From Candidatus Omnitrophota bacterium (GTDB lineage Bacteria > Omnitrophota > Gorgyraeia > Zapsychrales > JANLHA01), in contig JBFMEN010000003.1 of assembly GCA_040753435.1 (NCBI GenBank), forward strand, positions 10,916 through 74,915: a stretch of 64,000 nt of DNA, written 5' to 3'. Made by a program: the position numbers and the translations under genes. The notes beneath the pieces were generated by a model that saw only the letters and a program-made list of their open reading frames with translations, searched no databases and had not been told where the DNA came from. Positions 3,984 to 64,000 of the stretch are shown one piece after another; the first letter of the stretch is position 1; every line of letters starts with the position of its first letter.

Positions 3984-4883
3984 GTGATGATGAAGGTGCG
4001 TCAGGAAGCGATTGAGGATAAAAATAAGCGGTTATTTGCCTTTGAACGGGAGCTGGACCAGATTTCCCTGTCTTTGCTGAATATGTTTGATGATCGCAGA
4101 CTCAAGCTGTTTTCAATCCCGCCACATAAACGAATTTTTCTTTTCTTTCTGACCCGCGCGTTGAAAACCCATCAAGCAATCAAAATTCTGTGCCGTGAAG
4201 GTTTCGGACAAGATGCAGCCGTTTTGTTGAGAAGTCTTCTCGAAAACCTGATCAGCTTTAGATATGTTCTTCATCATTCGGAAGAAGCCGATGCACTTGC
4301 AGCGCGGTTTGTAGCCTACAAATGGGTCATTTTTCATCGTCATTTATGGGAACAGGAACGCGAGGAAAGGGAGAAAGGAGATCGGGAATACCGGTTGTTT
4401 GTTCAACGAAAAGAATTGATCTTAAAGAACTTTGAAGAGTTTAAAACGAAGTATCATATAAATTCAGGGCGCGGTCTCCTGACCTGGTCCGGTCGTACTG
4501 TTAAAGATATGGCCGGTATTGTCAGTAAAGATTTATTGAAAGAATATGAATCAATGTTCAGGACGTGCTCAAAGTTTACCCATCCAAGCATAATCAGTGA
4601 CAAAGAATACATGGTTATCGACGATGAAGAGATCGTTTTTTCAGTATCGCCTTCATTGATCGGTGTTGAAATAATCCTTTCGAAAAATATAAGTTATACT
4701 TTCGATGTCCTGTCGATCTTTGCCGGACTTTTTCAATTGAAGTGCGATGTCGTACTGAATGCATTTGAACGAAAGTTTAAGGCTTATCAGGCATCATTAT
4801 CGACCTCCACTTCAGGTACAGGTGCCGGAGAAACGGCTGCATCGATTAATCGGGAAAGTATTATTGTGTTTGAGAAGAATTAA
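3984..4883 (+). CDS. Hypothetical all-helical cytoplasmic protein (possibly DUF5677-like)
   Basis: 299 aa ORF starting MMMKVRQ, tightly spaced after the antiporter. No catalytic motif was recognised. Confidence 0.45.
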   Translation: MMMKVRQEAIEDKNKRLFAFERELDQISLSLLNMFDDRRLKLFSIPPHKRIFLFFLTRALKTHQAIKILCREGFGQDAAVLLRSLLENLISFRYVLHHSEEADALAARFVAYKWVIFHRHLWEQEREEREKGDREYRLFVQRKELILKNFEEFKTKYHINSGRGLLTWSGRTVKDMAGIVSKDLLKEYESMFRTCSKFTHPSIISDKEYMVIDDEEIVFSVSPSLIGVEIILSKNISYTFDVLSIFAGLFQLKCDVVLNAFERKFKAYQASLSTSTSGTGAGETAASINRESIIVFEKN

Positions 4884-5425: not shown

Positions 5426-8347
5426 ATGAAGAAACTATTAATTTTGATACTTGTGATGATCTTCTCCACACAATATTCTCCCGTGGTATGGGCTGATGTT
5501 GTCGCTTTGACAGATGCCCAGATGGACGAGATTGCTGCGGGGGATTGGGTTATCATCGCCCAGAATGAGGATGTTGTCGATGTATTTGACAACATCAACA
5601 GGCTTGAAGCGGGTGAATCATCACAGCAAGGGCTTAATGGCCTCAGTAACGTGAATGAGGTCAACAGCGCGACTGCCGTTCAGCAGAACGTTTCTGACTC
5701 CAACGAAGGGGTCATGGACATCACAACTCGCAATGAGGCCAGTGTCACGAATTATCAACCAAGAGATGAACTGACCGTGTCGGAGACGCGAACTATTTCA
5801 GCGAGCAGCGAGAATGAAGTCCAGCAAACACAAAGGGCAATTACTTCCGACTCATTGACCGCTTCTGATCGGACAACAGCAACGAATTCGGAAAGCGCCT
5901 CTTTGGAACAGCGGGCTTCAAGCTCATTGAGCACGCTTTCTGACCAGAGCGCGAATGCTTCAGTGAGTTTTGATCAGGACAGCTCTTTAGCGACTTCAAA
6001 CAATGCTTCGAGTGACGCAAGTTTGAGCGCGGTTGATAATTTTCATTTAGAAGATCATGCGGTGAATAATACTTCGGTATCCGCGGAAACCAGCGACGCT
6101 GCATCAAGCAGTGCGTCGTTGGACAGTAACGCTGCTGCGTCTGAAAGGCATACGACTGACCAAAATGCGAATCAGGCAGCTGATGCTTCTCTGGATACAA
6201 GTGCTGCGGCATCTGAAGATCACGCGACAGATCAGGCTGCGAATCAGTCTGCGTCGGCTTCTTTAGATACTAATGCTGCGGCATCTGAAGATCACACGAC
6301 AGATCAGGCTGCGAATCAGTCTGCGTCGGCTTCTTTAGATACGAATGCTGCGGCATCTGAAGATCACACGACAGATCAGGCAGCGAATCAGTCTGCGTCG
6401 GCTTCTTTAGATACGAATGCTGCGGCATCTGAAGATCACACGACAGATCAGGCTGCGAGTCAGTCCGCGTCGGCCTCTTTAGATACGAGTGCTGCGGCAT
6501 CTGAAGATCACACGACAGATCAGGCTGCGAGCCAGTCCGCGTCGGCCTCTTTAGATACGAGTGCTGCGGCATCTGAAGATCACACGACAGATCAGGCTGC
6601 GAATCAGTCTGCGTCGGCTTCTTTAGATACGAATGCTGCGGCATCTGAAGATCACACGACAGATCAGGCTGCCAGCCAGTCAGCTTCGGCAACTCTGGAC
6701 ACCAGTGCGGCTGCTTCGGAAGATCACACCGCGGATCAGACAGCCAGCCAATCGTCATTAACGGCAGTTGATGCCAGCGCTTCGGCTTCTGAAGACCATA
6801 CAACGGATCAGTCTGCTGACCAAAGCTCTGCCTCGACTGTTGATGCGAATCTTGCGGCTTCTGAATCATTTGCTGCCGAAACGGCATCAGATGCTTTTGA
6901 AGGCGATGGAGAAGTGGCATCAACCGCAGATTCGGTTAGTTTTTCTGGAACATATGAAGAGGATAACGGATCGATTGCCCTTGATGGCGATTATGCCGAA
7001 ACACATGCGACAACATCCGATACAAAAACTTATTCAACATCAAGCAGCAGTTCTACTTCTGATACCGCTGCTCTTGATGGTGCCTTGAGTACTGCAAACG
7101 ACAGTTCATCCTCCGCGGATGCATCGACATCGGATGCCGCTCAAGCTCAGGAATCATTAGCGGCTTCACAGGATCAGAATGCTTCGGCTTCGGCATCGAC
7201 AACTGATTCTGCAGCGGCCCAACAATCTCTGACTGCAGCAAGCGATCAGGATGCAGCTGCCCAGGCATCGACAACTGATTCTGCAGCGGCTCAGCAATCC
7301 TTGACTGCGGCAAGCGATCAGGATGCAGCTGCCCAGGCATCAACAACTGATTCTGCAGCGGCTCAGCAATCCTTGACTGCGGCAAGTGATCAGGATGCGG
7401 CGGCCCAGGCATCAACAACTGATTCTGCAGCGGCTCAGCAATCTTTGACTGCGGCAAGCGATCAGGATGCAGCGGCCCAGGCATCGACAACTGATTCGGC
7501 AGCAGCGGAGCAGGCTTTAAGCGCATCAAGCGATCAGGCGGCATCAGCTTCGGCAGCTACAACGGATTCAGCAGCGGCAGAGCAGGGGTTAAGCGCGTCA
7601 AGTGATCAGGCAGCTTCTGCTTCAGCGTCAACGACTGATTCGGCGGCGGCAGAGCAGGGGTTAAGCGCGTCAAGCGATCAGGCAGCTTCTGCTTCAGCGT
7701 CAACGACGGATTCTGCGGCAGCGGAACAGACGTTAAGCGCATCAAGCAGCAATAGCGCATCGGCTTCAGCTTCGACATTAGATGAAGCTGCAGCAAATCA
7801 GTCGCTGTCGACAACGGCTGATACAGCAGAAGATCATACGGCATCCGCCAATCAAGCCGTTGCCCAGAGCAGCGACCTGATCAATGATCATGATCAATCA
7901 GTGGATCAGGCCAGTGCGGATTCAGCCAGCAGTTCATTAGATGAAACGCTAACGGTATCTTTTGATCAGAACGCTTCACAGAATGACGTGGAAACTGTCG
8001 ATGCTGAGGAAGCAACAGAGGTTATTGCAGATTCAAGCAACGATGAGAGCCTTGACACCCAAAGCGATCTGAACACTGTCAGTGAAAGCACTAACGAAGC
8101 TTCTGTAACAACCACGGTAAGTGTCGTCACTTCTGACACGACAAATACAACCATTAATGAAAGCACCGGAAAGAGTGTCAGAAATGTGCTTGTTTTAAGC
8201 GGCGGGGCGCAAAGCGAGATGAACGTGATGAGTAATGTAAACGCCGTCAGTTCAGCCATTGCGGTTCAAACGAATGTTGCGAATGCTAACGGGATTAGCG
8301 GCAGCATCAGTCACACCAATGTGGCAAATGTTGTTAACGGTTTTTAA
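5426..8347 (+). CDS. Secreted repeat protein with Fap-like amyloid motifs at both ends flanking two 24-aa tandem-repeat arrays (FapC-like candidate)
   Basis: 973 aa with signal peptide MKKLLILILVMIFSTQYSPVVWA. It has an N-terminal LTDAQMDEIAAG motif, then LNGLSNVNEVNSATAVQQNVSDSN. Then come about 10 copies of ASASLDTNAAASEDHTTDQAANQS and about 8 copies of ASTTDSAAAQQSLTAASDQDAAAQ. The C-terminus is LSGGAQSEMNVMSNVNAVSSAIAVQTNVANANG..NGF. An RBS lies upstream. Confidence 0.7.
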   Translation: MKKLLILILVMIFSTQYSPVVWADVVALTDAQMDEIAAGDWVIIAQNEDVVDVFDNINRLEAGESSQQGLNGLSNVNEVNSATAVQQNVSDSNEGVMDITTRNEASVTNYQPRDELTVSETRTISASSENEVQQTQRAITSDSLTASDRTTATNSESASLEQRASSSLSTLSDQSANASVSFDQDSSLATSNNASSDASLSAVDNFHLEDHAVNNTSVSAETSDAASSSASLDSNAAASERHTTDQNANQAADASLDTSAAASEDHATDQAANQSASASLDTNAAASEDHTTDQAANQSASASLDTNAAASEDHTTDQAANQSASASLDTNAAASEDHTTDQAASQSASASLDTSAAASEDHTTDQAASQSASASLDTSAAASEDHTTDQAANQSASASLDTNAAASEDHTTDQAASQSASATLDTSAAASEDHTADQTASQSSLTAVDASASASEDHTTDQSADQSSASTVDANLAASESFAAETASDAFEGDGEVASTADSVSFSGTYEEDNGSIALDGDYAETHATTSDTKTYSTSSSSSTSDTAALDGALSTANDSSSSADASTSDAAQAQESLAASQDQNASASASTTDSAAAQQSLTAASDQDAAAQASTTDSAAAQQSLTAASDQDAAAQASTTDSAAAQQSLTAASDQDAAAQASTTDSAAAQQSLTAASDQDAAAQASTTDSAAAEQALSASSDQAASASAATTDSAAAEQGLSASSDQAASASASTTDSAAAEQGLSASSDQAASASASTTDSAAAEQTLSASSSNSASASASTLDEAAANQSLSTTADTAEDHTASANQAVAQSSDLINDHDQSVDQASADSASSSLDETLTVSFDQNASQNDVETVDAEEATEVIADSSNDESLDTQSDLNTVSESTNEASVTTTVSVVTSDTTNTTINESTGKSVRNVLVLSGGAQSEMNVMSNVNAVSSAIAVQTNVANANGISGSISHTNVANVVNGF
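6130..6870 (+). repeat. 72-bp in-frame tandem repeat array, about 10 copies (24-aa unit ASASLDTNAAASEDHTTDQAANQS)
   Basis: Near-identical 72-nt units (gcgaatcagtctgcgtcggcttctttagatacgaatgctgcggcatctgaagatcacacgacagatcaggct) read directly in the sequence. They show occasional synonymous or conservative variants (N/S, N/T). Confidence 0.85.
7170..7740 (+). repeat. Second 72-bp in-frame tandem repeat array, about 8 copies (24-aa unit ASTTDSAAAQQSLTAASDQDAAAQ)
   Basis: Units such as gcatcgacaactgattctgcagcggctcagcaatccttgactgcggcaagcgatcaggatgcagctgcccag are repeated with minor variation. The period is the same as the first array but the unit is unrelated. Confidence 0.85.
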
Positions 8348-8406
8348 CGAGTGTTTTGGGGGAAGGAGACTTCCCCCAAAACTTTTTAAAGAATGTAAGG
8401 TGAGCT

Positions 8407-9690
8407 ATGTATCGGAAAATTATATCTATGATGATTTCAATCTGTCTTTTGTGTTCTCATGGACCGCTTGCATTTGCCAGTTATGCCGTTGTTCTCACCG
8501 ATTATGAATTGGATCAGATTTATGCCCAGGGAGTGGATGTCAGTCCCGGCGATGTTTTAAGTTCAGCGACAGTTGAGACTGCTGCTCTTGAATCAAATCC
8601 TTTTACGGAAAGTGAAAACAATAGCGTAACGTCGGTTCCTGTGACACCGGATAATCCTGTTGGACCGGCAACCCCGGTCCTGCCGGATGGTCCGACCGGC
8701 CCGGTGTTACCTGATGGGCCTTTTCCACCGGAAAGTCCTGTGTTACCAGATGGACCGGTTTTACCGGGTGGCCCTTTTGGTCCGACATCGCCGAATGGTC
8801 CGGTAGTGCCTGACAGTCCGGCGCTTCCGGACGGTCCGTTTGCACCGGGAAGCCCTGTGTTGCCGGACAGTCCTTTTGGTCCGACATCGCCGAATGGTCC
8901 GGTAGTGCCTGACAGTCCGGCGCTTCCGGACAGTCCGTTTGCACCGGGAAGTCCTGTGTTGCCGGACAGTCCTTTTGGTCCGACATCGCCGAATGGTCCG
9001 GTAGTGCCTGACAGTCCGGCGCTTCCGGACAGTCCGTTTGCACCGGGAAGTCCTGTGTTGCCGGACAGTCCTTTTGGTCCGACATCGCCGAATGGTCCGG
9101 TAGTGCCTGGCAGTCCGACGCTTCCGGACGGTCCGTTTGCACCGGGAAGTCCTAACGGGCCGATCAATCCGGTATTACCAACAGGACCTGTTAGTCCCGA
9201 ATTGCCAAATGGACCGTTTGCTCCGAACAGCCCGACTCTGCCAAATGCGCCGGGGAGTGTAACAGCGCCTCAAGCGCCAGCAGCTCCCGGGGAAGTGGCA
9301 TTAGCGGATCCTGTTGCATTAACTCCGGTCGTTCCTTCGGCACCGGGAACGCCGTCTGCTCCAAACGTCCCGGCGGCTCCAAATCCACCTATTCAGCTTG
9401 ATGTTGTCGCGGGGGGAAATGGCGGCGGTTTTCAGGTGGCGTTAAACAACAGCAGCGGTCAGTCTTTGCTGCCGGAATCTTTTACATCAAATGCGCTGGG
9501 AGCGATCAACTCAGTAGATTTGAGCGGGGCGGCCCAGCAGAATCTTTCCGCCATGGTCAATGTGAATGCGGCGGGAAGCGTTGTTCCGGTGATGATCAAT
9601 CTTACGGTATTGATGAATTCCACAGTTGAGAATCTGAGCAATTTCAATGATTTGAATTTGGCAAATTACTCGACCCTGAGAGTCCAGTGA
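8407..9690 (+). CDS. Secreted proline-rich (collagen-like PDSP/PDGP) repeat protein, paralogous at its N- and C-termini to the 5426..8347 product (FapB/C-like candidate)
   Basis: 427 aa with a signal peptide (..CSHGPLAFA). It has an N-terminal VVLTDYELDQIYAQG motif, then four 33-aa repeats (PDSPFGPTSPNGPVVPDSPALPDSPFAPGSPVL). Its C-terminal LSGAAQQNLSAMVNVNAAGSVVPVMINLTV aligns with LSGGAQSEMNVMSNVNAVSSAIAVQTNV of the upstream protein. Confidence 0.7.
   Translation: MYRKIISMMISICLLCSHGPLAFASYAVVLTDYELDQIYAQGVDVSPGDVLSSATVETAALESNPFTESENNSVTSVPVTPDNPVGPATPVLPDGPTGPVLPDGPFPPESPVLPDGPVLPGGPFGPTSPNGPVVPDSPALPDGPFAPGSPVLPDSPFGPTSPNGPVVPDSPALPDSPFAPGSPVLPDSPFGPTSPNGPVVPDSPALPDSPFAPGSPVLPDSPFGPTSPNGPVVPGSPTLPDGPFAPGSPNGPINPVLPTGPVSPELPNGPFAPNSPTLPNAPGSVTAPQAPAAPGEVALADPVALTPVVPSAPGTPSAPNVPAAPNPPIQLDVVAGGNGGGFQVALNNSSGQSLLPESFTSNALGAINSVDLSGAAQQNLSAMVNVNAAGSVVPVMINLTVLMNSTVENLSNFNDLNLANYSTLRVQ
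8750..9150 (+). repeat. 99-bp in-frame tandem repeat, about 4 copies (33-aa Pro-rich unit)
   Basis: The unit ccggacagtccttttggtccgacatcgccgaatggtccggtagtgcctgacagtccggcgcttccggacagtccgtttgcaccgggaagtcctgtgttg is repeated nearly exactly. Confidence 0.85.
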
Positions 9691-9714
9691 TAGTGAAAGG
9701 CCGGTTCGACAGCA

Positions 9715-10431
9715 ATGTCTGAGAAAAGTTGCAGAAAAACAATAAGGATTGACGTTTTAGTTCTTGTGGCCTTGGCGTTGGTCAGCATGTGTTTGTCCGA
9801 TGCCAGGGCCGCAAGTTTTTCGGTCGGCGGCGTCCGTCTTTATAAAAATGTGAAACCTCTGCGGGAAATCAAGCGGAGCAATCTAACTCCTCAGAGTCTG
9901 GATTTCAGCTGCGGGCCTGCCGGTCTTGCGACGCTGTTTCACTATTATTTAAGCGATCCCGTGTCTGAAGCAGAGATTATTACGGCGTTATTACAGACGA
10001 CGTCTTTGGAAAAGGTCAGGGCCCGTGGAGGATTTTCATTATTGGATTTAAAATCGTTTGCCGAACGGCGTGGGTACGTAGCAACAGGTTTTCAAATGGA
10101 TATCAGCGCCCTTCGCCAGTTGGGTAAACCGGTTCTGGTGCCGATTAAGTTTAAAAATTACCGGCACTTTGTCGTTGTTAAAGATGTGGTGAATGACCGT
10201 GTTTTTATTGCCGATCCTGCTTCGGGAAACATGTCATTGAAGACACATCAGTTTGAACGGATATGGTTACATGGAATTGTGCTGTTAATAGAACCATCAG
10301 GAGGCGGGATCCAGAAAAATAACGATTTAGAATTAAAGGAATCCGATCTTATTTTCGCAGATTATTCCCGATGGAGCGCAATCGTAAGGCCAAGTTTAAT
10401 TCGAACCGCAATTTACCCGACGGAGTATTAA
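9715..10431 (+). CDS. Secreted C39-like cysteine peptidase domain protein (FapD-like)
   Basis: 238 aa with a signal peptide (..CLSDARA). QSLDFSCGPAGLATLFHYY matches the Q..x..CG.A.L catalytic-Cys region of peptidase C39 (bacteriocin-processing, double-glycine peptidase) domains. Its size and periplasmic localisation resemble FapD. Confidence 0.7.
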   Translation: MSEKSCRKTIRIDVLVLVALALVSMCLSDARAASFSVGGVRLYKNVKPLREIKRSNLTPQSLDFSCGPAGLATLFHYYLSDPVSEAEIITALLQTTSLEKVRARGGFSLLDLKSFAERRGYVATGFQMDISALRQLGKPVLVPIKFKNYRHFVVVKDVVNDRVFIADPASGNMSLKTHQFERIWLHGIVLLIEPSGGGIQKNNDLELKESDLIFADYSRWSAIVRPSLIRTAIYPTEY

Positions 10432-11699
10432 TGGAATACTTGCAATATGGAAAAAGGGTGGCATGGGGCCTTGCCTTCACCGCCGCCGTTATGCTGGTAC
10501 ATGGAATTTTAAGTGAGGTAAGAAAAAGGAATGTTGAAGAATCAGTTTTGCGTGAAGAAGTCCGCCTTGAGGTGATTTCAGAGTTTGAGCAGAGGATGCA
10601 GGACATGATCCGTCTGCAGGTGGAAGAAAAAGTTGCGGCAATAAAATTGGTGAATGGCGGCAGGCTTCTCTCAGACTATGAGTTGAAAGAAAGCATTGCC
10701 GGAAATCCGGTTGAGTCACCAATAAACGCGGTTGCCCATTCCGGCGATTCCGCCGTTGTCGATCTTGTCATTAAAAGAGACGATGTTTCAGGGACAGATC
10801 AGAATGGTGAGGCGGAAGGTTTGGCAACGGAGCCGGTCACTGATAGCGAAATCGTCGAATCCATCGAGAAAACTTTGGTGCAACGGGGGAGTATCCTGCT
10901 TCCAAAAGGGACTTTACAGATGGAGCCGAGCCTTGTTTATGCCCATTTTTCCTCTAACCGGATCAATATCCAGGGGTTCAGCATTCTTCCAGTTCTCGTC
11001 ATAGGGGATATTTCAACGGAAACCGTGCGCAGGGATCTTTTTATTCAAACGCTTTCATTTAAATACGGGCTGATGCACAATTTTCAGACTGAACTTAAGA
11101 TTCCTGCGCGATATGAATACGATCGGATCACAGACACGGCCAGCGCTGAAAGCACGCGCAGTGACTTCGGGATCGGCGATGTGGAATTTGGTTTCAGCCG
11201 TCAGATCGGCTGGGAAAACGGAACCATTCCGGATCTTGTTTTTGCCATGGCCGTAAAAACTCCATCAGGAGAAGGCCCTTATAATCGTGACATCGGTTTG
11301 GGAACAGGGCACTGGGCTCTTCGCGGCAGCCTCATCGCGGCAAGGGCGAGTGATCCGGCAGTTATCTTCGGCAGCCTGAGTTATACCTGGAACATCGAAA
11401 GGGACATCGACAATTATGGAACAGTGGACCCCGGTGACTCCATCAGTTACAGCGTCGGGACCGCGATTGCGTTAAGTTATCAGACGGCGATCACATTTTC
11501 ATTCGATCAGAGCATCACCCTTCATATGGAAAGGAACGGGAGCAGCGTGTCGAATTCGTTTGTCAATGCCGCGAATTTAAGGACAGGGTTTAACTGGTCT
11601 TTGAGCGAGCGGTCTTCAGTCGATTTCGGAGTCAGTACGGGGGTCACCGAAGACGCTCCAGACGTGACTGTTGAAATACGTTTTCCCTATATTTTTTAA
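10431..11699 (+). CDS. Outer-membrane secretion channel candidate with an N-terminal coiled-coil and a C-terminal beta-barrel ending in Phe (FapF-like, Phenol_MetA_deg-type barrel)
   Basis: Its ATG overlaps the upstream stop (TAATG), indicating translational coupling. It has an N-terminal hydrophobic segment, a heptad-rich stretch (VLREEVRLEVISEFEQRMQDMIRLQVEEKVAAIK) and then alternating-hydrophobic beta strands ending in the C-terminal motif RFPYIF. The ORF-track start at 10371 was trimmed to the coupled ATG. Confidence 0.65.
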   Translation: MEYLQYGKRVAWGLAFTAAVMLVHGILSEVRKRNVEESVLREEVRLEVISEFEQRMQDMIRLQVEEKVAAIKLVNGGRLLSDYELKESIAGNPVESPINAVAHSGDSAVVDLVIKRDDVSGTDQNGEAEGLATEPVTDSEIVESIEKTLVQRGSILLPKGTLQMEPSLVYAHFSSNRINIQGFSILPVLVIGDISTETVRRDLFIQTLSFKYGLMHNFQTELKIPARYEYDRITDTASAESTRSDFGIGDVEFGFSRQIGWENGTIPDLVFAMAVKTPSGEGPYNRDIGLGTGHWALRGSLIAARASDPAVIFGSLSYTWNIERDIDNYGTVDPGDSISYSVGTAIALSYQTAITFSFDQSITLHMERNGSSVSNSFVNAANLRTGFNWSLSERSSVDFGVSTGVTEDAPDVTVEIRFPYIF

Positions 11700-11795: not shown

Positions 11796-12095
11796 ATGAT
11801 GAAAAGAAAGATATTGATAACGTTATTATTGTTGATTTTGGGACTGGGGTTGACCTACCTCGTTTCCATGGGAGTCCAGGCGGAAGATGCGTTGGGCCAA
11901 CAGAAGATTGAGGGAGAGATTGTGGAGATGGATGAGGAGGAGGGGGTCGTTGTGATCCAGGATATGCATCCACCCAATGATGAAAAACAATTATATGCGC
12001 ATCCGCAGAAGCTGGAATCGTTCGAGGAGGGAAACAGGGTACGCGCCTATTATCAGCCAAAAGACAGTGTGATCCGGGATATGAATATGTTTTAA
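11796..12095 (+). CDS. Small secreted acidic protein (hypothetical; possible accessory of the amyloid-like locus)
   Basis: 99 aa with a signal peptide (MMKRKILITLLLLILGLGLTYLVSMGVQA) and an upstream GGCGGAG RBS. An intrinsic terminator follows it. Confidence 0.5.
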   Translation: MMKRKILITLLLLILGLGLTYLVSMGVQAEDALGQQKIEGEIVEMDEEEGVVVIQDMHPPNDEKQLYAHPQKLESFEEGNRVRAYYQPKDSVIRDMNMF

Positions 12096-12124
12096 GTTTT
12101 TTTCAAAAATATTTATGAAAATGA

Positions 12125-12150
12125 GACAGGCACAAGCCTGTCTTTTTTTA
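12125..12150 (+). terminator. Rho-independent terminator ending the amyloid-like operon
   Basis: gacaggcacaagcctgtc hairpin followed by ttttttt. Confidence 0.6.
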
Positions 12151-53805: not shown

Positions 53806-56800
53806 TTGAGAAAAATTAACTGTTTAAAATTTCATGCTGCGGGAAAGGCCCTGACCTGTTTTTTGGCTTTTTCCTTTGTGTTTAATCCTGTTATTGGGTA
53901 TGCCCAGATTGGATTAAACCCGTCATCTTCCCCAGTTCTTCCTGTTCCAGGAGCCATGGTTCCTTTGAGCGGCGCTTTTGACCCGGCCATCATCAATGGG
54001 ATAAAGATATTTCCCGATAATCCTTTTCGATTAGAGTTTCTTATTGGTTCAGGACAATCGGAATTGGAAGGGGATGACTTCAGGGAAGAGTCTAAAAAGC
54101 TTGTTCGGTATTTTTTGGCTTCATTGACTGTTCCCGACAAGGAACTCTGGGTCAACTTATCGCCCTATGAAAGAGATCGTATTATACCCGAAGCCTTTGG
54201 TATTACTGAAATGGGCCGGGATTTGCTGGCCCAGGATTATTTATTGAAACAGGTAACGGCTTCGCTGATGTATCCGGACGGGTCTCCAGGCAAAGAATTC
54301 TGGCTCCGGGTTTCCGCGAAGGCTTATGAACAATATGGGGTCACCGATGTTCCCGTTGACCTGTTTAACAGAGTATGGGTCTTGCCCGACAGGGCGGTTG
54401 TTTATGAGCAGGGAGATACTGCTTTTGTGATTGAGAGCCGTTTAAAGGTGATGCTGGATTCGGATTACGAAGCCATGCAGGGTTCCCAAGAGCCCAAGAG
54501 CCCAAGTTCCAAAGAAAAAGATTTTACATGGGCACATGGGCACATGGGCACATGGGAACTTGACTCCGGAGAGCTTTCGAAACAAATCGTTCGCGAGGTC
54601 ATCCTTCCCGAAATCGAACGAGAAGTCAACGAAGGAAAAAATTTCGCCCCGTTGCGCCAGATTTACAATTCAATGATACTCGCCACATGGTTTAAACGAA
54701 GTCTGCGGGAAGGTTTGTTGAACAAAATTTATGTCGGAAAGAACAAGATTGAAGGGGTTGATATTAGTGACAAACAGGCCAAAGAGAAGATCTACCAGCG
54801 GTACCTGGAGGCATTCCAGGAAGGGGTTTATAACCTGGTTAAAGAAGAGTATGATCCTGTTCTAAAAGAGATTGTTCCAAAGAGATACACATCCGGAGGA
54901 ATGGAATTCGGGTTGCGGCTGGATCAAACGGTCAAGAATGTCACCAGTCTGTCTTCAGCGCAGTCCAAAGATTTCGCAATGCTGGTTAAAGACAAGGGGA
55001 TCAGGAAGGTTTCCGTTGATCTGGAAAGGTCCGCAAAGACAATCCCTGCTCTAAGTTATGCTATTTATCAAGATGCGGAATATATCAACGGAAGGATTGA
55101 GGGGGGAAGATTATTTCGTCCGGGAGGGGCAAAAGATATTTTTGAATTACGCGTGCACTTGGACGAAACGCCTTTGGATTTCTCTGGGGTTGTTAAAATG
55201 ATCCTTCCGAAAGACGGAACGTTAACTATGTTCGGAAAGGGATATTGGCAGGGTTGGGAGGAATACCGCGGCGAGCCGGTAATTATTGTTATAAACAACA
55301 GAAACGTGGTTGAAGTTTATAATTCACAAAATCAAAAGATTTTCCCATTCGGAAAAAATATTATTTATCCCGGAGGAACGTACCGGAATGGAAAAGTCAA
55401 TGGAACTCCGTTTAACCCGCATGGAGCAAGGACAAAAGTTACGATTAAAGACTATATCGGTGAAAACCCGGAATTCACCGGTGTTATCCACAGAGTTCAG
55501 CTCAATAATCATGGCGGGTTGCCTTCCATGGAATATCTGGGGGTCAAATGGGCTAATATGAGCGGCTATGAAAACGCCTTTGTTACGATCGTAGTCGAAA
55601 AAGGCCGGGCTACGGCGATCTATGATGCGAGCGGGAAACAGATCTTCCCTTTCCCCCATAATTATGTCCATTTTGGGGCTCAATACAAAGACGGAAAAAT
55701 TACCGGCGGCGTTTTGGCAACCCCGCACGGGATTTCCAGCCGTTACGAATTGAACAAGTTGTTATCAGCCGCGAGAAAAAAAGATCCCGGCATGTCCTGT
55801 GTCGTCGAAAAGGTGCCGCTGAATGATAAAGGAGGGCTGACGTATTTCCTGGGGGTCGGCAAGTATTGGGCAGATAAGGCGGGATACGAAAAGGCCCTTG
55901 TTACGATTGTCGTTACTAACGGAGATGAGATTACGGTTTATGATGAGAGAGGAAAGAAGATTTTCGAAAGACTGCGGAAGGAAGAAAATTTCGTTTACTT
56001 AAATGCTCGATATGAGGAGGGGAAAATCGTCGGAGGCACGCTTCTCAATGAACGGGGAACTTTTGACCGGCGGGAGTTAAATAAAATCGTGGCGCCGCAT
56101 CCCGGGTTTACCGGGGTCATTGACAAGGTCCGCTTGTCGTTTAATGGCGGGTTGGTGAAATTTCTTGGAAAAAATGTTTGGATGGGGATGACGGAATATG
56201 CCTATCAGATGGTCACAGTTGTTATGGCCGATGGGGAAGTGACGGAAGTTTATGACAGGAGCAACGAGCCAATATATCCGTTTAAAGAGAATTTTATATA
56301 CAAAGGCGCCCGTTTGGAGAAAGGGAAAATTATCGGGGGAGAACTTGTCAATCCCCAGGGGTTTCTGGACAAAACGTTTATTGGGAAGTATCTGAATGAA
56401 CCGGAAAATGAGGATTTTACGGGAGTTATTGAGACAAGGCTGCTGTTTGATGGAGGACTTCCCGTGGGTTTAGAGGAACCCGGATGGTCGTTACAGACGG
56501 AATATAAGCATAAATTTGTTTTTATAGTGAAAGAAAAAGGGAAGACAGTCGGAATTTATGATGAGGAAGGAACTAGATTATTTCCTTATGACGCAAATTT
56601 TGTTTATTGGAACGCTGATTTTATTGATCGGGAGATTAAGGGAGGAAAGCTCCTGACCCCGGCAGGGGTGAGAACCCGTAAGAATTTAAATGAACTGCTT
56701 GCTGAATATCCGGATTTTACAGGGATTATTACGAAGCTGCCGTTTCACGATTCAGGACGGCTCGGTCAAGTGAAAGATGGAATCTATCTTGACTATGTTT

Positions 56801-59800
56801 CGGCTATTCGTGGGAAGAAAGTGACGGTTAAGCTTGTCAAGGGAGCGGTTGTCGCGATTTACGATGAACGCGGATTTATGGTGTGGTCGGAAAACCGGGA
56901 GAGCGTCGGATTTGATATTTTGAATAGTCTATGGAAGTCGGGGGACCTTCAAAAGTTACTGGAACTTTTCGGTGAAGAGGGAACAAATCGTCTCTTGTTC
57001 TCTTTTTTTGATGATTTGACGCCGAAAAGTTTGATAGACTTTTTTCGGGATTACAGGAGTTTTGGGGTCCGGAAGAAGTTTCGGAAAAAGAAGTATGAAG
57101 AAACATTGAAGCCTTCGGAAATTGTTAAAAAGCTGGGCGCGATCGGCCTGCTTCAGAAACAATCCTCAAAGGCCGACTTTCAGGAAGTTTTACGGCAGCA
57201 GTTATTTTCGCTTGTCTATAGTTCTATTGTACGGGACTATAAATTCATCGATGCGATCGAAAAGGAGGTTAAGAGGAATTCGTTTGATCCGGTTATTAAA
57301 AATGCTTTTGAAGAGGTTATCCGCACTTACAGAGATCTGGGAAATTTTCATGTTGAAGGGATTCGATCCCCTACTCAATTAAGATTTTATCAAAAGCGCG
57401 GAGTCAAGTTTATTCTGGACGCTAAACGAGTTCTCCTGTCTGATCAATCGGGGTTGGGAAAAACTTTACAGGCCTTGACGGCGGCGGTTAATGCTTATGA
57501 TGGAAAAGGCGGGAAAAAGATTCTTATTATCTGTCCGGACGTATCCATCCGTAATACGTGGATTAAGGATATTCAACGTCATTTAAAAGGTGAACAGAAA
57601 ATTTATGTTGTCGGCAGCAAAGCAGACTTTAATTCGATTAAAAAACGGAACGATGCCAGGGACGCAAGGTTTATTATTGCCAATTATGAGGTTTTAAGAG
57701 GGGAAGATGCCGCCGGTCTCAGGCAGAATATAAAGGATTTGGGGATTGATTTTATTATTGCTGATGAGGGGCACAGGATTAAGAACAATTCCCAGCTGAC
57801 TGAGGCGGTCCAGGAGTTCCACGCTCCGTACCAGGTCCTGATCAGCGCTTCCGCCCAGCAGGGAAGGACGATTGCCAAAATTTTTAACCTGCTGAATTGG
57901 CTTTATCCGGAAAGGTATCCGGACAGAAAGGAATTCTTGCGGAAGTACGGTAATGCTGAGGGATACTGGCAGTTGAAGTCTGAAATGAGAGGCTTTATGC
58001 TGCGGAGACATAAATCAGACGTCCTGGCGGACATGCCGGAAATTAACGTGGAGTTTCTTCCCGTGCAGCTTAAAGGCGAACAACTGCGTTTATATCAAGA
58101 GATTGAGAAGGAGTTTGATGAGATTACTGAATCGGGTGATTATCTGCGAATGGGGGGAGTGATCCTGAATTTGATTCGAGTGGCGCTGGATACAGCCTTG
58201 ATCAGAGATATCTTTTTAAAAGATTTAGACGCTCAGGAAATTATTCCGGTTAAAGTGGGAGGGTATTACGGAAGAGTCGGAGACGTGGAATACAGGTTCT
58301 CCTTTTCATTTAAAGATCCGGTTTTTTCTTATACTGATTCATCAGGGAAGAAATATTCTATGAAGGTGAGGGATGGGGACATTGTTCAGATGGGTGGACG
58401 AACGTATGAAATAGGAATTAAGGAAAGAAAATCGGTTTCAGCGAAGTATGAGGCCCTTGACCGTATGGTCGATGACATTGTCGGTGAAAAAAAAGAAAGC
58501 ATGGTGGTTTTTACCGGCGCGCGAAAGGCTGTTTCTTATTTAAAGCAACGATATGAAAAAGAAGGATACGAAGTGGTCGGCATTGATGGAGATGTCAGCG
58601 CGAAAGCAAGGGAAGATATTCTGAAAAAGTTTAATACGGCCGGGAGACCGATTATCCTTGTTTGTACCTATCAAACATTGGGTGAATCCATTGATATTAC
58701 CGGAGCGCATTACGGGGTCTTGCTGGACAGCCCATGGCTTGACCGCGAACAGATCATGGACCGGCTGCATCGATTGGGGCAGCTGCATGATGTCTTGTTT
58801 ACGATTATTGTTGCAAAAGACACCGTCGATGAACATGTAGAGCAGGTCAATATGGAAAGCGATATGATCAAGAGCATTGTTCTTGATAACCTTAATGTTT
58901 ATAACAGGCAAAAGGAATTGAGCAAAAGATTAATTTTGGAGAAAGTCAGAAATAAAGAACTTTATTCCCAACTTAGAAGATTTCAAGAGAAGGTCCGGTT
59001 AATTGGAAGCGACGTGGAGAAAAAGGCCCGATCGGCAAGACTTTTGACTGAATATAAAAAAGGCAATCTGAGCGTTCTTTACGGAAACCATCGTTTCGCT
59101 GCAGAACTTGAAAATATAAACGGGGAGACCGTTTATCTTGACGGCCTTTTGGAGCTTGTGAATATGGTGAAGGATCTAAGTGCCGATTCAAAGAATGCGT
59201 TAAAAGAATTTTTCATTCAACGTTTTAAAGACGAGAGGCAGAAAGATGTCAGGGTTAAAGATATGATCCTGTGGGATATTTGCAATCAAATTATCCCCGG
59301 TTTTATTAATATCGATTATGACGGAAAATTGGAGTTTATGATTGAATGGGGAACTTATATATTAAGAAGGCTGATCGTTAACCCTGACCTCAGTAAGGAA
59401 GAGTTGATGACAGGATTGGGGGATGAAGCCGGAGACCTTTTTAATGACACCATGCATCTTCTCGACACATCGAATATCCTGAAGTTATTTTCTCTGATGA
59501 CGGTCATCCCTCAATCCTATTATTATGAGGGAGAGCTTCTCAGGTATGAACCGGCGATCTCTGTTTATTACGCGAATGGAAGAATCAGGTACTGGGATCA
59601 ACAGATCGTCGATAACATTGCGCCGGGATGGCAGATCAGCGACGGTGAGATTTATTCGGGAATAGAGGGGATTGAGCGGGAAGGCCGGCGGGTCCGGGCT
59701 CTGGAAGAATCAGAGGAGAAGCGTCTGGCCAATCAGATACGGCTGGGGAACAAGGCGGCGGAAAATCTTCTGGTGCGGGCGTATTTCCGAAATTTGAAAC

Positions 59801-63600: not shown

Positions 63601-64000
63601 GGGGGAATGATGAAAATTTTTTCCGCCGCGGCGGCTTCGGCCCTGGCGTCTTTTTTCTTTTCTTTTGAGACCGGGGTTATTACCGGGGTTGTCTCCCCGG
63701 GGGCGGGTATTCAATCAATCGCAAAAGGAATGGGGCCAGCTGTTGTAAGTGTTACATATAACGATATTATCAATCAGACACCGGAAGCTGTCGCAGTTTT
63801 TCATGAGCTTGCCGGGAAAGGGGAAATATCAGGACTGGGGCTGATGCTTCAGGACGGATTTGATGTTAATGCGACGAACGATGACGGAGAAACAGCGCTG
63901 ATAACGGCCATTAACCGGCGGCAGGTTGAAACCGTAAAATTTCTTCTTGAGCAAGGCGGTAGTCCTGAGCCCGCCGCGATTAAGTTGGCGGTCGCAAATA
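60640..64000 (+). CDS. Second giant-gene paralog, with more than 1120 aa inside the window and its 3' end beyond it. It has a signal peptide, the same conserved N-terminal domain, a transmembrane helix, HEAT/ARM-like repeats and a C-terminal ankyrin repeat
   Basis: ATG at 60640 with an AAAAGAGGG RBS. The N-terminal about 370 aa are roughly 60-65% identical to the 53806 product (..KYFLASMTVPQNDLWVNLSPNEKDRIIPDELG.. / ..TWELDSGELSKQVIREVILPQIEKEVNEGKNFATLRQIY..). The TM helix is FVHLVLAPVSLAILGAVLFIAVPG (61885..61965). HEAT-like units read LIPILHQNLKNSSDIIVEGALKAL, VPELLNLLNRHNPGIRLEVMSL, GLIRNLSSKDAGLQLISAQSLGKIG. The ankyrin unit is DGETALITAINRRQVETVKFLLEQGG. There is no in-frame stop to the window end. 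Confidence 0.8.
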   Translation, partial: MNQTITKNHFSTCIRVISSFLVVTFLTTTVLPPGYAQTIGLSLPVPGAMVGQSQAFVPALLKGMTVYPDNPLQFDFIIDSGHEKLKEPELKKESGRLVKYFLASMTVPQNDLWVNLSPNEKDRIIPDELGKTELGRDLLAQDYILKQLTATMMYPEEELGKKFWERVRKIAKEKYGITEIPTDTFNKVWILPETAMVYEYENTVYITDAHLKVMLDSDYEAMQQKGAQEPKSPGSQVKDFTWAHGNVGTWELDSGELSKQVIREVILPQIEKEVNEGKNFATLRQIYHSLILAKWYKQTVKNSIMSQVYIDQNKTAGIEINDPAMKETIYDRYMQAYKKGVFNYIKEDYDELSQTVIPRQYFSGGFKDSAMVVEKSDNTFKVAKSEVGAEYRSRVIVRPTAAAIVFDDDKFFPALSRRFVHLVLAPVSLAILGAVLFIAVPGENLSFAQPASSPTVEAVSEISKSLDTVRQAKIDVAQDDYGYEYLIINLSFAAPEIGVRRPGWNVIPLQDNKVFKTDQAVDQLLLHKNDPRAASGILEAAGFNTHAMMAAAKLDEKDRAGLIPILHQNLKNSSDIIVEGALKALSEFDSASLRSVVPELLNLLNRHNPGIRLEVMSLIFSKDLQTSDPDKFALELAKLMNTEQDHTVLAADWLGVENYSRAERQGKIPQVMEIVDSLERETRIIAAYIAGKLGTKANGSVDGLIRNLSSKDAGLQLISAQSLGKIGPLAEKALPKLEEIMNTAGYEAEPKRAAGTAYKRIKNIPLDPGEDKETSPRTLSFFKEDDQAMLAADTVDLKEVLAMLPRELRVGRNSRRSIDLRLISPDEWNDLYPQATNGILFQDFQSSRGGQPQGDGVMKISIRDDVTAKAFLQEFAGQGLHRRLGLEDEGLLKLIDEVRTEPDHIADTLFVLDEEIQGVRAELKGHDRKKRETYLQSLLQRREDLRLSLKRAVEKATTDPQIVVAVDGSGFDDDHDKNGGAERIYGIGGMMKIFSAAAASALASFFFSFETGVITGVVSPGAGIQSIAKGMGPAVVSVTYNDIINQTPEAVAVFHELAGKGEISGLGLMLQDGFDVNATNDDGETALITAINRRQVETVKFLLEQGGSPEPAAIKLAVAN

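What the first reader, a model, noticed from the sequence alone, without database searches (positions are those of the whole stretch)
5495..5545. Double-glycine-type motif retained downstream of a Sec signal peptide in both putative amyloid subunits, next to a C39 peptidase
Both repeat proteins carry, just after a predicted signal-peptidase site, a segment matching the spacing of double-glycine leader peptides (hydrophobic at -12, -7 and -4; small residue pair at -2/-1). These are VALTDAQMDEIAAG|D (5495..5545) and VVLTDYELDQIYAQG|V (about 8482..8529). C39 peptidases cleave after exactly such motifs, and a standalone secreted C39-like peptidase is encoded two genes downstream. This suggests a two-step maturation: Sec export, then periplasmic C39 cleavage, which could license amyloid assembly or secretion through the FapF-like channel. 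A Sec signal peptide combined with a GG-type processing site in one precursor is unusual.
Basis: inference. Interest (0 to 1): 0.6.

Follow-up and report, generated by a model that had tools for sequence, protein, structure and literature searches.

The report
Double-glycine-type leader behind signal peptide
In this Omnitrophota operon, both secreted repeat proteins and the outer-membrane channel carry a bacteriocin-style "cut here" leader motif next to a periplasmic C39 protease, a pairing repeated in dozens of related loci that points to the long-sought recognition site of FapD-type proteases.

Summary
ORF A (5426..8347) and ORF B (8407..9690) each have a Sec-type signal peptide followed directly by L-[ST]-D-x-[EQ]-[LM]-D-x-I-x-A-x. 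This matches the Leu-12/Glu-8/Leu-7/Val-4 plus small-pair determinants of double-glycine leaders.

The next genes are a secreted standalone C39 peptidase with an intact Gln/Cys/His/Asp set (9715..10431) and a true FapF homologue (10431..11699).

In 93 related loci, a 12-column matrix finds 152 leaders on the peptidase strand and 1 on the opposite strand. Of these, 142 lie 0-21 residues after a signal-peptide core. All 130 hits in loci where the catalytic site could be located lie within -5 to +3 kb of the catalytic Cys codon. 56 of 60 loci with enough upstream sequence have at least one.

New here: the FapF-like channel carries the same motif between its coiled coil and its plug linker.

Caveats:
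- No cleavage is shown.
- The pair is Ala-Gly, not Gly-Gly.
- ORF B has Gln at -1 in the canonical register.
- The "amyloid" label has no homology support.

Best reading: Sec export followed by C39 recognition and cleavage, coupled to FapF-type export. This is a new variant of the Fap/Fil kind.

The parts
5426..8347 (+). ORF A, 973-aa secreted repeat protein (large cargo)
   Evidence: ORF list. GAGGG ribosome-binding site upstream. No Pfam or NCBIfam family. Orthologues in L004-L007, L016, L018-L024.
5426..5494 (+). ORF A Sec-type signal peptide (aa 1-23, MKK + hydrophobic core + VWA)
   Evidence: Read from the sequence. No SignalP tool was available, so the call rests on the n/h/c-region pattern.
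5495..5542 (+). ORF A leader DVVALTDAQMDEIAAG. The matrix core is 5507..5542. The predicted scissile bond is G39|D40 (5542/5543).
   Evidence: 34.5-bit matrix score. xAG|[DE]W is invariant in 16 orthologues. Matches the Leu-12/Glu-8/Leu-7/Val-4 rule.
5618..5695 (+). ORF A N-terminal copy of the conserved SQQ.L..LSN.N.V.SA.AVQ.N motif
   Evidence: Most conserved 12-mer of the family, 0.85.
6185..6729 (+). 72-nt (24-aa) tandem repeats, 7.6 copies, Ser/Ala/Asp/Thr-rich
   Evidence: Tandem Repeats Finder.
7172..7747 (+). Second 72-nt tandem repeat block
   Evidence: Tandem Repeats Finder.
8198..8290 (+). ORF A C-terminal copy of the conserved motif (GAQSEMNVMSNVNAVSSAIAVQTNV)
   Evidence: Conservation 0.82. 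Shared by all large and small cargo proteins.
8353..8382 (+). Terminator-like hairpin (13-bp stem, then T5) between ORF A and ORF B
   Evidence: Consensus scan. The number of such sites in the region equals the shuffle expectation, so this is only a lead.
8407..9690 (+). ORF B, 427-aa secreted protein. It is the orthologue of the ~135-150-aa 'small cargo' encoded directly upstream of the peptidase in other loci, here carrying a Pro-rich insert.
8407..8478 (+). ORF B signal peptide (aa 1-24, ends AFA)
   Evidence: Read from the sequence.
8479..8532 (+). ORF B leader SYAVVLTDYELDQIYAQ(G). The matrix core is 8494..8529. The register is ambiguous: the cut could fall after Q41 or after G42.
   Evidence: 24.7 bits. 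Subfamily table: P1 variable, next residue Gly in 18 of 21.
8773..9153 (+). 99-nt (33-aa) Pro-rich tandem repeats, 3.8 copies
   Evidence: Absent from orthologues such as L004-L006.
9508..9624 (+). ORF B C-terminal conserved domain (AAQQNLSAMVNVNAAGSVVPVMINLTVLMNS)
9715..10431 (+). Standalone secreted C39 peptidase of FapD/FilB type, 238 aa. Signal peptide aa 1-32. Q60 at 9892-9894, C66 at 9910-9912, H151 at 10165-10167, D167 at 10213-10215.
   Evidence: Pfam PF03412 5e-20. NCBIfam FilB 2.6e-36 and FapD 9.6e-35, both below cut-off. Aligns to LahT150 6mpz and PCAT1 4ry2 across Cys, His and Asp. The four residues are invariant in 15 relatives.
10431..11699 (+). FapF-type outer-membrane channel, 422 aa. 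The ATG overlaps the peptidase stop (TAATG) and a GGAG site lies upstream.
   Evidence: E 2e-30 to FapF 5o65. AlphaFold pLDDT 85.5. Foldseek top hits are FapF, TM 0.82-0.86 normalised to the target. Start codon.
10668..10703 (+). Third copy of the motif, LSDYELKESIAG (aa 80-91), inside the FapF-like protein. It sits at the end of the coiled-coil helix and before the disordered linker.
   Evidence: 11.2 bits here; 17.6-24.6 bits in six orthologous loci, 12.4 in L006. Among 120 homologues, 43 score >=14 bits and 62 score >=8 bits at the same position. Short helix 83-89, then pLDDT <50 for residues 90-137.
10854..10883 (+). Predicted plug helix (aa 142-151)
   Evidence: AlphaFold model. Aligns with the N-terminus of the FapF-beta crystal construct.
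10914..11693 (+). Beta-barrel (aa 162-421)

Best explanation
The four genes 5426..11699 form one operon for a two-step export route related to Fap and Fil.

Proposed sequence of events:
1. ORF A and ORF B cross the inner membrane through Sec and lose their signal peptides.
2. Each is left with a 16-18-residue N-terminal propeptide that is, in effect, a double-glycine-type leader: L-12, [ST]-11, D-10, E/Q-8, L/M-7, D-6, I/V-4, A-2, G-1.
3. The secreted C39 peptidase binds this leader as its cytoplasmic relatives do. A short helix places the -4, -7 and -12 side chains in a groove and the small pair lies in the active site.
4. The peptidase cuts after Ala-Gly, giving DWVIIAQ... as the mature N-terminus of ORF A.
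5. Recognition and cleavage are coupled to hand-over to the FapF-type channel. The channel carries the same motif where its periplasmic coiled coil meets the flexible linker to the plug helix. The peptidase is therefore either docked there or cuts the channel as well.

Shown here: the motif, its conservation, its strict neighbourhood with the peptidase, the intact catalytic residues, the FapF homology and the position of the third motif.

Inferred: binding, cleavage, the exact scissile bond, and the coupling to export.
For: 1. [quoted passage not shown] The family consensus from 87 unique leaders is L [STN] D x [EAQ] [LM] D x [VI] [TAY] A G.

2. Specificity: 152 hits at >=14 bits on the peptidase strand against 1 on the other strand of 93 loci. 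142 of the 152 lie 0-21 residues after a signal-peptide hydrophobic core. All 130 hits in loci with a located catalytic site lie -5 to +3 kb from the catalytic Cys codon, and 47 lie within 500 nt upstream. 56 of 60 loci with >=1.5 kb upstream have one.

3. The peptidase is built to cut. Q60, C66, H151 and D167 are invariant and align with the catalytic residues of LahT150 and PCAT1. It has its own signal peptide.

4. No ABC transporter lies between window positions 2229 and 24416, about 3 kb upstream and 13 kb downstream of the operon, so the canonical cytoplasmic route is not available.

5. Isolated 36-residue leaders weakly hit 11 NCBIfam models. Ten of these are leader-bearing bacteriocin, lanthipeptide or pheromone precursor families: lacticin 481, NHLP, CTB bacteriocin (E 0.0014), bacteriocin_sig (E 0.01), VP1, BlpC, mersacidin and others.

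6. The same motif sits in three otherwise unrelated protein types: large cargo, small cargo and the channel.

7. In Pseudomonas, the catalytic Cys of FapD is required for secretion. Processing of FapE and of the FapF linker was proposed but never mapped (PMC5557850; PMC12822426). FapE-like proteins next to FapD in Aeromonas, Desulfopila, Cupriavidus and Croceicoccus share an invariant L-x3-R-G at the equivalent place, and 3 of 4 have GG.
Against: - No experimental or proteomic evidence of cleavage exists for any member.
- P2 is Ala in almost all members, whereas characterised leaders have Gly at -2.
- In ORF B of this window P1 is Gln, and 9 of 21 members of its subfamily have E/Q/H/R there. 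A canonical C39 site would probably not accept these, so ORF B may be cut one residue later, slowly, or not at all.
- In true Fap operons the main secreted subunits FapB and FapC lack the motif yet need FapD. The essential act of the peptidase therefore need not be cargo cleavage.
- The motif in the window's own FapF-like protein is weak: 11.2 bits, with Ser at -4.
- Peptide docking could not be modelled with the tools offered.
Confidence: 0.62

Rival explanations
1. The leader is a binding or targeting tag that is not cut in the cargo. The C39 protein or the FapF coiled coil holds the unfolded cargo by this helix and delivers it to the pore, as C39-like domains of RTX transporters do. The peptidase's only real substrate is the channel or another component.
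For: Non-catalytic C39-like chaperone domains exist (discussed in PMC5557850). ORF B-type leaders tolerate E/Q/H/R at P1. FapB and FapC need FapD without carrying the motif. The channel carries the motif at a plausible regulatory position.
Against: The catalytic Gln/Cys/His/Asp are invariant in all 15 aligned relatives. P2 Ala and P1 Gly/Ala/Ser are held almost invariant in four of five motif classes, which a pure helix-binding tag would not require.
Confidence: 0.17
2. The cut is a release or regulatory switch rather than a maturation step. The leader keeps the cargo, or the channel's coiled coil, tethered in the periplasm, and cleavage by the C39 enzyme frees the fibre or closes or opens the pore. 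This would be functionally like LapG cutting the N-terminal retention module of LapA at a TAAG site (from my own knowledge of the Lap system, not tested here).
For: The consensus ..VTA(G/A)G resembles the LapG site in form only. The motif sits at the coiled-coil/linker junction of the channel. Rouse et al. proposed FapD cleavage of the FapF linker as a way to reach the closed state.
Against: After signal-peptidase cleavage the leader is only ~16 residues and has no obvious anchor. The peptidase is C39, not a LapG-type enzyme. No c-di-GMP receptor of LapD type was seen in the genes examined.
Confidence: 0.12
3. The motif is a structural element of the mature proteins or a chance resemblance, unrelated to the peptidase.
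For: None beyond the short length of the motif (12 residues).
Against: 152 hits against 1 in the strand control, and 117 against 30 +/- 6 in the shuffle control. Fixed position after signal peptides. Strict neighbourhood with the peptidase. Presence in three unrelated protein types.
Confidence: 0.03

Closest known systems
Fap system of Pseudomonas/Aeromonas (FapA-F: FapD periplasmic C39 peptidase and FapF trimeric outer-membrane channel)
   Same: - A secreted standalone C39 peptidase sits next to a FapF-type barrel with an N-terminal coiled coil, a disordered linker and a plug helix.
- Cargo is Sec-dependent and repeat-rich.
- The Fap peptidase's catalytic Cys is needed for secretion and its substrate is unmapped.
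- FapE-like neighbours of FapD carry a related L-x3-R-G-G motif.
   Different: - Both proteins score far below the FapD and FapF equivalog cut-offs: 120 against 330 bits, and 141 against 700 bits.
- No FapA, FapB, FapC or FapE homologue was found.
- Here every cargo protein carries a full leader directly after its signal peptide, and so does the channel. FapB and FapC carry none.
- Rouse et al. state that Fap proteins lack canonical C39 sequences.
Acinetobacter Fil locus (FilA putative pilus subunit, FilB C39 peptidase, FilC FapF-like protein)
   Same: The same peptidase-plus-barrel module. FilB is the best NCBIfam hit of the window peptidase, at 2.6e-36. FilA has a signal peptide followed by MDDAALSAATGQ|DG, which resembles the leader by eye.
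   Different: Scores are below the cut-offs: FilB 125 against 475 bits, FilC 57 against 630 bits. The FilA stretch scores below 3 bits with the matrix built here, so that resemblance is not established. No paper on FilB as a C39 enzyme was found in the library.
Double-glycine leader peptides cut by C39 domains of ABC exporters (AMS/PCAT; ComA, LahT, PCAT1). Substrates are class II bacteriocins, lanthipeptides and NHLP/Nif11 peptides.
   Same: The same leader determinants at the same spacing (-12, -8, -7, -4 and a small pair) and the same peptidase family with the same catalytic residues. Leaders weakly hit those precursor families.
   Different: - The leader lies behind a Sec signal peptide rather than at the extreme N-terminus.
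- The peptidase is a separate secreted protein, not a cytoplasmic domain of an ABC transporter, and no ABC transporter is nearby.
- Cargo is 130-1400-residue repeat protein, not a small peptide.
- The pair is Ala-Gly.

Membership tests
Peptidase C39 (Pfam PF03412) | Domain match above the curated cut-off | tested here: met
   72.1 bits against a cut-off of 22, E 5e-20.
Peptidase C39 (Pfam PF03412) | Catalytic Cys and His, with Asp and the oxyanion Gln | tested here: met
   Q60, C66, H151 and D167 are invariant in 15 relatives. Cys, His and Asp align with LahT150 and PCAT1.
Fap system (sensu stricto) | FapD equivalog | tested here: not met
   NF058616 gives 119.9 bits against a cut-off of 330.
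Fap system (sensu stricto) | FapF equivalog | tested here: not met
   NF058560 gives 140.8 bits against a cut-off of 700. It is nonetheless a clear homologue: E 2e-30 to 5o65 and TM 0.82-0.86.
Fap system (sensu stricto) | FapB/FapC amyloid subunits with GN.G.N..AG..NQQ.N repeats | tested here: not met
   No family hit for ORF A or ORF B. A profile of the cargo C-terminal domain finds no FapC or CsgA in the PDB, best E 2.5.
Fap system (sensu stricto) | FapE-like protein next to FapD | tested here: not met
   No gene lies between or after the peptidase and the channel in this window. hhalign of the small-cargo family against FapE-like proteins gives probability 2%.
FapD/FapF-type module (broad sense: periplasmic C39 plus FapF-fold barrel, co-localised) | Adjacent genes, both with signal peptides; barrel with coiled coil, linker and plug | tested here: met
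   Overlapping TAATG junction. AlphaFold: helix 2-74, disordered 90-137, plug helix 142-151, barrel 162-421.
Acinetobacter Fil system | FilA, FilB and FilC above NCBIfam cut-offs | tested here: not met
   FilB 125.4 against 475 bits, FilC 57.5 against 630 bits, no FilA hit.
Double-glycine leader peptide / PCAT substrate | Leu-12, Glu-8, Leu-7, hydrophobic -4, small pair at -2/-1 | tested here: met
   ORF A has L, Q, M, I, A-G. Family consensus. ORF B meets the spacing but has Gln at -1.
Double-glycine leader peptide / PCAT substrate | Leader at the extreme N-terminus with no Sec signal; processed in the cytoplasm by a C39 domain fused to an ABC exporter | tested here: not met
   A signal peptide precedes the leader. 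The peptidase is standalone and secreted. No ABC transporter between window positions 2229 and 24416.
Double-glycine leader peptide / PCAT substrate | Cleavage after the small pair | not testable with these tools
   Needs N-terminal sequencing, mass spectrometry or an in vitro assay.
Functional amyloid subunit | Cross-beta fibril formation | not testable with these tools
   The AlphaFold model of a small-cargo orthologue is of low confidence, pLDDT 51. No homology to solved amyloid subunits.

The most novel reading that the evidence does not exclude
The Ala-Gly/Gly-Gly leader behind the signal peptide is the outer-membrane translocation signal of a widespread, unnamed two-step secretion route found in Omnitrophota, Acidobacteriota and several Proteobacteria.

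In this route one periplasmic C39 protease both matures every cargo protein and cuts, or docks on, the same motif in its FapF-type channel to gate the pore.

The same logic would explain the unmapped FapD substrates in Pseudomonas: FapE at its L-x3-R-G-G site, and the FapF linker.
Probability: 0.3. Interest if true: 0.8.

Novelty: new variant of a known kind. Interest (0 to 1): 0.66.

Why it matters
FapD-type periplasmic C39 peptidases are essential for secretion of Pseudomonas biofilm amyloid. Their substrate and recognition sequence have remained open since 2017. A December 2025 review still says only that FapD is 'thought to process' FapE and FapF.

This locus and about 80 relatives show an explicit, canonical and strongly conserved leader in the proteins encoded next to the peptidase, and in the channel. 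That gives a concrete, mutable cleavage site and short peptide substrates for in vitro work.

The finding also shows three further things:
- A leader type known from cytoplasmic bacteriocin export has been re-used in the periplasm behind a Sec signal. This tandem signal arrangement was not described in the literature I could search.
- The cargo family is large and unannotated: at least 715 clusters at 90% identity, all 'hypothetical' and without Pfam domains.
- The family of mostly standalone peptidases is also sizeable: about 976 clusters at 50% identity with E <= 1e-10.

If the leader is sufficient for FapF-type export, it could serve as a portable secretion tag.

Tried and rejected
- Pfam and NCBIfam scans of ORF A, ORF B and cargo from other loci found no family. 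The only hit was a spurious Pro-rich match to an IgA-binding protein.
- A profile of the cargo C-terminal domain against PDB sequences gave only chance hits (QacR, E 2.5) and no FapC or CsgA. The 'amyloid' label is therefore unsupported.
- AlphaFold of a small-cargo orthologue with a 40-sequence alignment gave pLDDT 51. It was unusable and no fold search was run.
- hhalign of the small-cargo family against FapE-like proteins gave probability 2%, so no homology is claimed.
- The matrix built on the Omnitrophota/Acidobacteriota leaders does not pick up the Fap- or Fil-type motifs: below 3 bits for FilA and 8.3 bits for two Desulfopila proteins. Those links rest on alignment by eye of four FapE-like sequences and are marked tentative.
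- Literature searches for FilB/C39 and FilA/FilF in Acinetobacter found nothing. 'C39 + Omnitrophota' returned only papers on C39 domains inside giant proteins, which are unrelated. A 'FapD + FapE' search by word start was swamped by funding-agency acronyms.
- The promoter and terminator scan found no more sites than in shuffles, so the hairpin after ORF A is only a lead.
- Docking of the leader on the peptidase could not be attempted.


Full report
**What is at the coordinates**

5495..5545 encodes DVVALTDAQMDEIAAGD, residues 24-40 of a 973-aa ORF (5426..8347). This ORF begins with a textbook Sec-type signal peptide, MKKLLILILVMIFSTQYSPVVWA. Counting back from Gly39 gives L-12, T-11, D-10, Q-8, M-7, I-4, A-2, G-1.

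The next gene (8407..9690, 427 aa) begins MYRKIISMMISICLLCSHGPLAFA|SYAVVLTDYELDQIYAQGV.

It is followed after 25 nt by a 238-aa protein with its own signal peptide and a Pfam Peptidase_C39 domain, E 5e-20. The best NCBIfam matches of this peptidase are FilB (2.6e-36) and FapD (9.6e-35), both far below the curated cut-offs.

Its stop codon overlaps (TAATG, with a GGAG site upstream) the start of a 422-aa outer-membrane protein, 10431..11699. That protein aligns to the FapF crystal construct 5o65 at E 2e-30. Its AlphaFold model (pLDDT 85.5) has FapF as the top structural match, with TM 0.82-0.86.

The window comes from a Candidatus Omnitrophota genome. No ABC transporter lies between window positions 2229 and 24416.

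**Is the motif more than chance?**

I fetched 9 related loci from genomes, 80 from metagenomes and 3 from annotated replicons. Each was oriented so that the peptidase is on the + strand.

- A loose regular expression for the leader gives 117 hits on the + strand, against 30 +/- 6 in composition-preserving shuffles. The - strand gives 21 against 20 +/- 4.
- A 12-column log-odds matrix built from 87 unique leaders gives, at >=14 bits, 152 hits on the + strand and 1 on the - strand.
- 142 of the 152 lie 0-21 residues downstream of a signal-peptide hydrophobic core.
- All 130 hits in loci where the catalytic Cys could be located lie between -5 kb and +3 kb of it, and 47 lie within 500 nt upstream.
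- 56 of the 60 loci with at least 1.5 kb of upstream sequence have a hit. The 4 without are the Fap- or Fil-type loci discussed below.
- ORF A scores 34.5 bits and ORF B 24.7 bits.

The family consensus is L [STN] D [ASE] [EAQ] [LM] D x [VI] [TAY] A G, followed by G/E/T/D.

**Conservation in orthologues**

The Omnitrophota-type clade has two cargo subfamilies.

- ORF A type (16 sequences): signal peptide, then L[ST][DEN]x[EQA]M[DE]x[IV]xAG|[DE]W[VI]. A-2, G-1 and W+2 are invariant.
- ORF B type (21 sequences): signal peptide, then L[STQ]DxELDx[IV][YH]A-x-G[FLI].

In the register fixed by the hydrophobic spacing, position -1 of the ORF B type is G in 10 of 21 but E/Q/H/R in 9. The following Gly is present in 18 of 21. 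The window's ORF B has Gln there. The canonical register keeps the spacing but puts Gln at P1. This cannot be settled by sequence alone.

In ORF A the leader is the third most conserved 12-mer (0.74). It ranks after two copies of a Q/N-rich motif, N.VN.SA.AVQ.N, at the two ends of the protein (0.85 and 0.82). In ORF B it is second (0.72), after the C-terminal LSAMVNVNAAGS (0.74). In both proteins it is the most conserved element of the first ~75 residues.

**The operon type**

Across the metagenomic loci the same order recurs:

1. One to three large repeat proteins, each with a signal peptide, the leader, a variable low-complexity middle and a C-terminal ..AQ.N..A.N.VNAAGS.VAN..N.. domain.
2. 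A ~135-aa protein with a signal peptide, the leader and a C-terminal AQQNL..LVN.NAVNS.V.VLLNLNVNINS domain.
3. The C39 peptidase.
4. The FapF-like channel.

ORF B is the orthologue of the small protein, with a 33-aa x 3.8 Pro-rich insert.

No cargo protein hits any Pfam or NCBIfam model. A profile search with the small protein finds at least 715 clusters, all 'hypothetical'. The only organism names attached are Edaphobacter (Acidobacteriota); several unnamed hits lie on the same Omnitrophota contigs as loci L004 and L006.

The peptidase has 976 relatives (50%-identity clusters) at E <= 1e-10. Most of the best 150 are standalone proteins of 200-280 aa.

**Is the peptidase competent, and does the motif fit it?**

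Gln60, Cys66, His151 and Asp167 are invariant in 15 relatives spanning 30-55% identity. Cys, His and Asp align with the catalytic residues of LahT150 (6mpz) and PCAT1 (4ry2).

The LahT150 study defines what such enzymes read (PMC6363468):
- Leu-12-x3-Glu-8-Leu-7 upstream of GG, GA or GS.
- Residues -4 to -11 form a two-turn helix.

The leaders here carry each of these determinants at the same spacing. The difference is Ala at -2, which is nearly invariant in all classes.

Scanned alone, forty 36-residue leader segments gave weak hits to only 11 of 18,950 NCBIfam models. Ten of those are leader-bearing bacteriocin, lanthipeptide or pheromone precursor families: lacticin 481, NHLP, CTB bacteriocin (E 0.0014), bacteriocin_sig (E 0.01), VP1, BlpC, mersacidin and others. 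None is significant alone, but the enrichment is telling.

**A third copy, in the channel**

The same motif occurs inside the FapF-like protein, at LSDYELKESIAG|N (10668..10703, aa 80-91). In this window it is weak (11.2 bits, Ser at -4). Six orthologous loci score 17.6-24.6 bits, and L006 scores 12.4.

Among 120 Omnitrophota homologues the best matrix hit falls at the equivalent place (about residues 95-140) in most of them. 43 score >=14 bits and 62 score >=8 bits. The consensus is [LIV]SDEELDx[YIVF][VI]A[GSA]|[GR]GIEP. The motif is absent from the channels of the soil (Acidobacteriota-type) clade.

The AlphaFold model shows the following layout:
- Residues 2-74: one long helix, comprising the signal peptide and the coiled coil.
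- Residues 83-89: a short helix, which is the motif.
- Residues 90-137: pLDDT below 50.
- Residues 142-151: a plug helix.
- Residues 162-421: the barrel.

The motif therefore sits exactly where the coiled coil meets the flexible linker. This is the region where Rouse et al. speculated that FapD might cut FapF.

**Relation to Fap and Fil**

In Pseudomonas, FapD is periplasmic and its catalytic Cys is required for FapC secretion. [quoted passage not shown] FapE and the FapF linker were proposed as targets (PMC5557850; PMC6173800). A December 2025 review still says only 'thought to process'.

I recovered a true fap operon from Aeromonas caviae, whose FapF is 42% identical to the UK4 protein. FapB and FapC there have no leader. 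FapE reads signal peptide ...LADGELAHLRGR|YVSSHGISYFGIEF.

The proteins encoded next to FapD-like genes in three other genomes align with it through an invariant L-x3-R-G:
- Desulfopila: VVIEQELDSMRGG|FTSADGLEISFGIE
- Cupriavidus: VAQARLEESRGG|FDAGGLQVGFGID
- Croceicoccus: LSEEVLARQRGG|I

This suggests that the GG site noticed in FapE is a degenerate member of the same leader class. It rests on four sequences aligned by eye.

Acinetobacter FilA (NF050077, 332 bits) has a signal peptide followed by MDDAALSAATGQ|DG. That stretch scores below 3 bits with my matrix, so I treat it as a lead only.

The small cargo family shows no profile similarity to FapE-like proteins, at 2%. The cargo C-terminal domain shows none to FapC or CsgA. 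'Amyloid' therefore remains an analogy.

**Most likely mechanism**

- Shown: the motif, its position, its conservation, its exclusive neighbourhood with a catalytically intact secreted C39 enzyme, and the FapF homology.
- Inferred: after Sec export and signal-peptidase cleavage, a ~16-residue propeptide remains that is a double-glycine-type leader. The C39 enzyme binds its helix and cuts after Ala-Gly. This event is coupled to entry into the FapF-type pore. The copy in the channel either docks the enzyme at the pore or is itself cut to change the gate.

I put about 0.6 on recognition and cleavage of the cargo.

The main rivals:
- Binding without cleavage, with the channel or another protein as the true substrate (0.17).
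- A release or gating switch analogous to LapG/LapA (0.12).
- Chance or a purely structural role, which the controls exclude (0.03).

**Novelty**

The D/F module and its spread to other phyla were known. The idea that FapD cuts at GG or GA in FapE or FapF was floated.

I did not find the following in the searchable literature:
- A full, canonical leader placed directly behind a Sec signal on every cargo protein of a large unannotated family.
- The same leader inside the channel.

I therefore rate this a new variant of a known kind. It has direct experimental value for the open FapD-substrate question.

Noticed in passing
window 8353..8382: A strong terminator-like hairpin (13-bp stem, 7 G-C pairs, then TTTTT) lies in the 60-nt gap between ORF A and ORF B. 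It could attenuate read-through so that the large subunit is made in excess over the downstream genes. The scan as a whole found no more sites than in shuffles.
   Followed up: no
window 5618..5695, 8198..8290 and 9508..9624: ORF A carries the same ~25-residue Q/N-rich motif ([SA]Q..L..xSN.N.V.S..AVQ.N) at both ends of the mature protein, and ORF B has a related copy at its C-terminus. All cargo proteins in about 80 loci share it. It may be the assembly or channel-recognition element. No similarity to FapC or CsgA was found.
   Followed up: partly
window 10390..10428 (peptidase C-terminus): Omnitrophota-clade peptidases end in a conserved tail [RLQ]-[TP]-[TAV]-[IV]-[FYH]-[PT]-x-E-[FWY]-COOH, about 40 residues beyond the C39 domain. 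A terminal aromatic tail of this kind might dock on the channel.
   Followed up: no
window 3984..4883: A DUF5677 protein (Pfam 1.4e-21) is encoded just upstream of the operon. Similar proteins (..KLF.LP.HKRIFLF..TRA.K..) sit upstream of the orthologous operons in L004-L007. This suggests a conserved neighbour of unknown role.
   Followed up: no
L008 3738..7250 (Desulfopila MAG): This locus has a sigma-54 activator and three small secreted proteins with internal GG-type sites: LSSEELDQIIGK|G, LSSNTLDSLSGG|E and IEQELDSMRGG|F. It also has an Asp/Ser/Thr/Asn-repeat protein whose middle is masked (a run of X), and a FapF-like gene on the opposite strand (7299..8630). One leader hits the lacticin 481 leader model at E 0.0058.
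   Followed up: partly
window 53806..60558 and 61255..64000: There is a 2250-aa ORF, followed by another long ORF that runs off the end of the window. Very long proteins are reported as typical of Omnitrophota. These were not examined.
   Followed up: no
window 11796..12095 and 12123..12144: A 99-aa protein with a signal peptide is encoded right after the channel gene, followed by a terminator-like hairpin. It has no family hit, and whether it belongs to the operon is unknown.
   Followed up: no
L099 (NZ_AP026896.1) and L097 (CP035931.1): Two 'plasmid' records of the PLSDB collection are 4.9 Mb (Aeromonas caviae) and 1.0 Mb (Acinetobacter baumannii) and carry housekeeping genes such as hisD. 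They look like chromosomes or chromosome fragments filed as plasmids.
   Followed up: no
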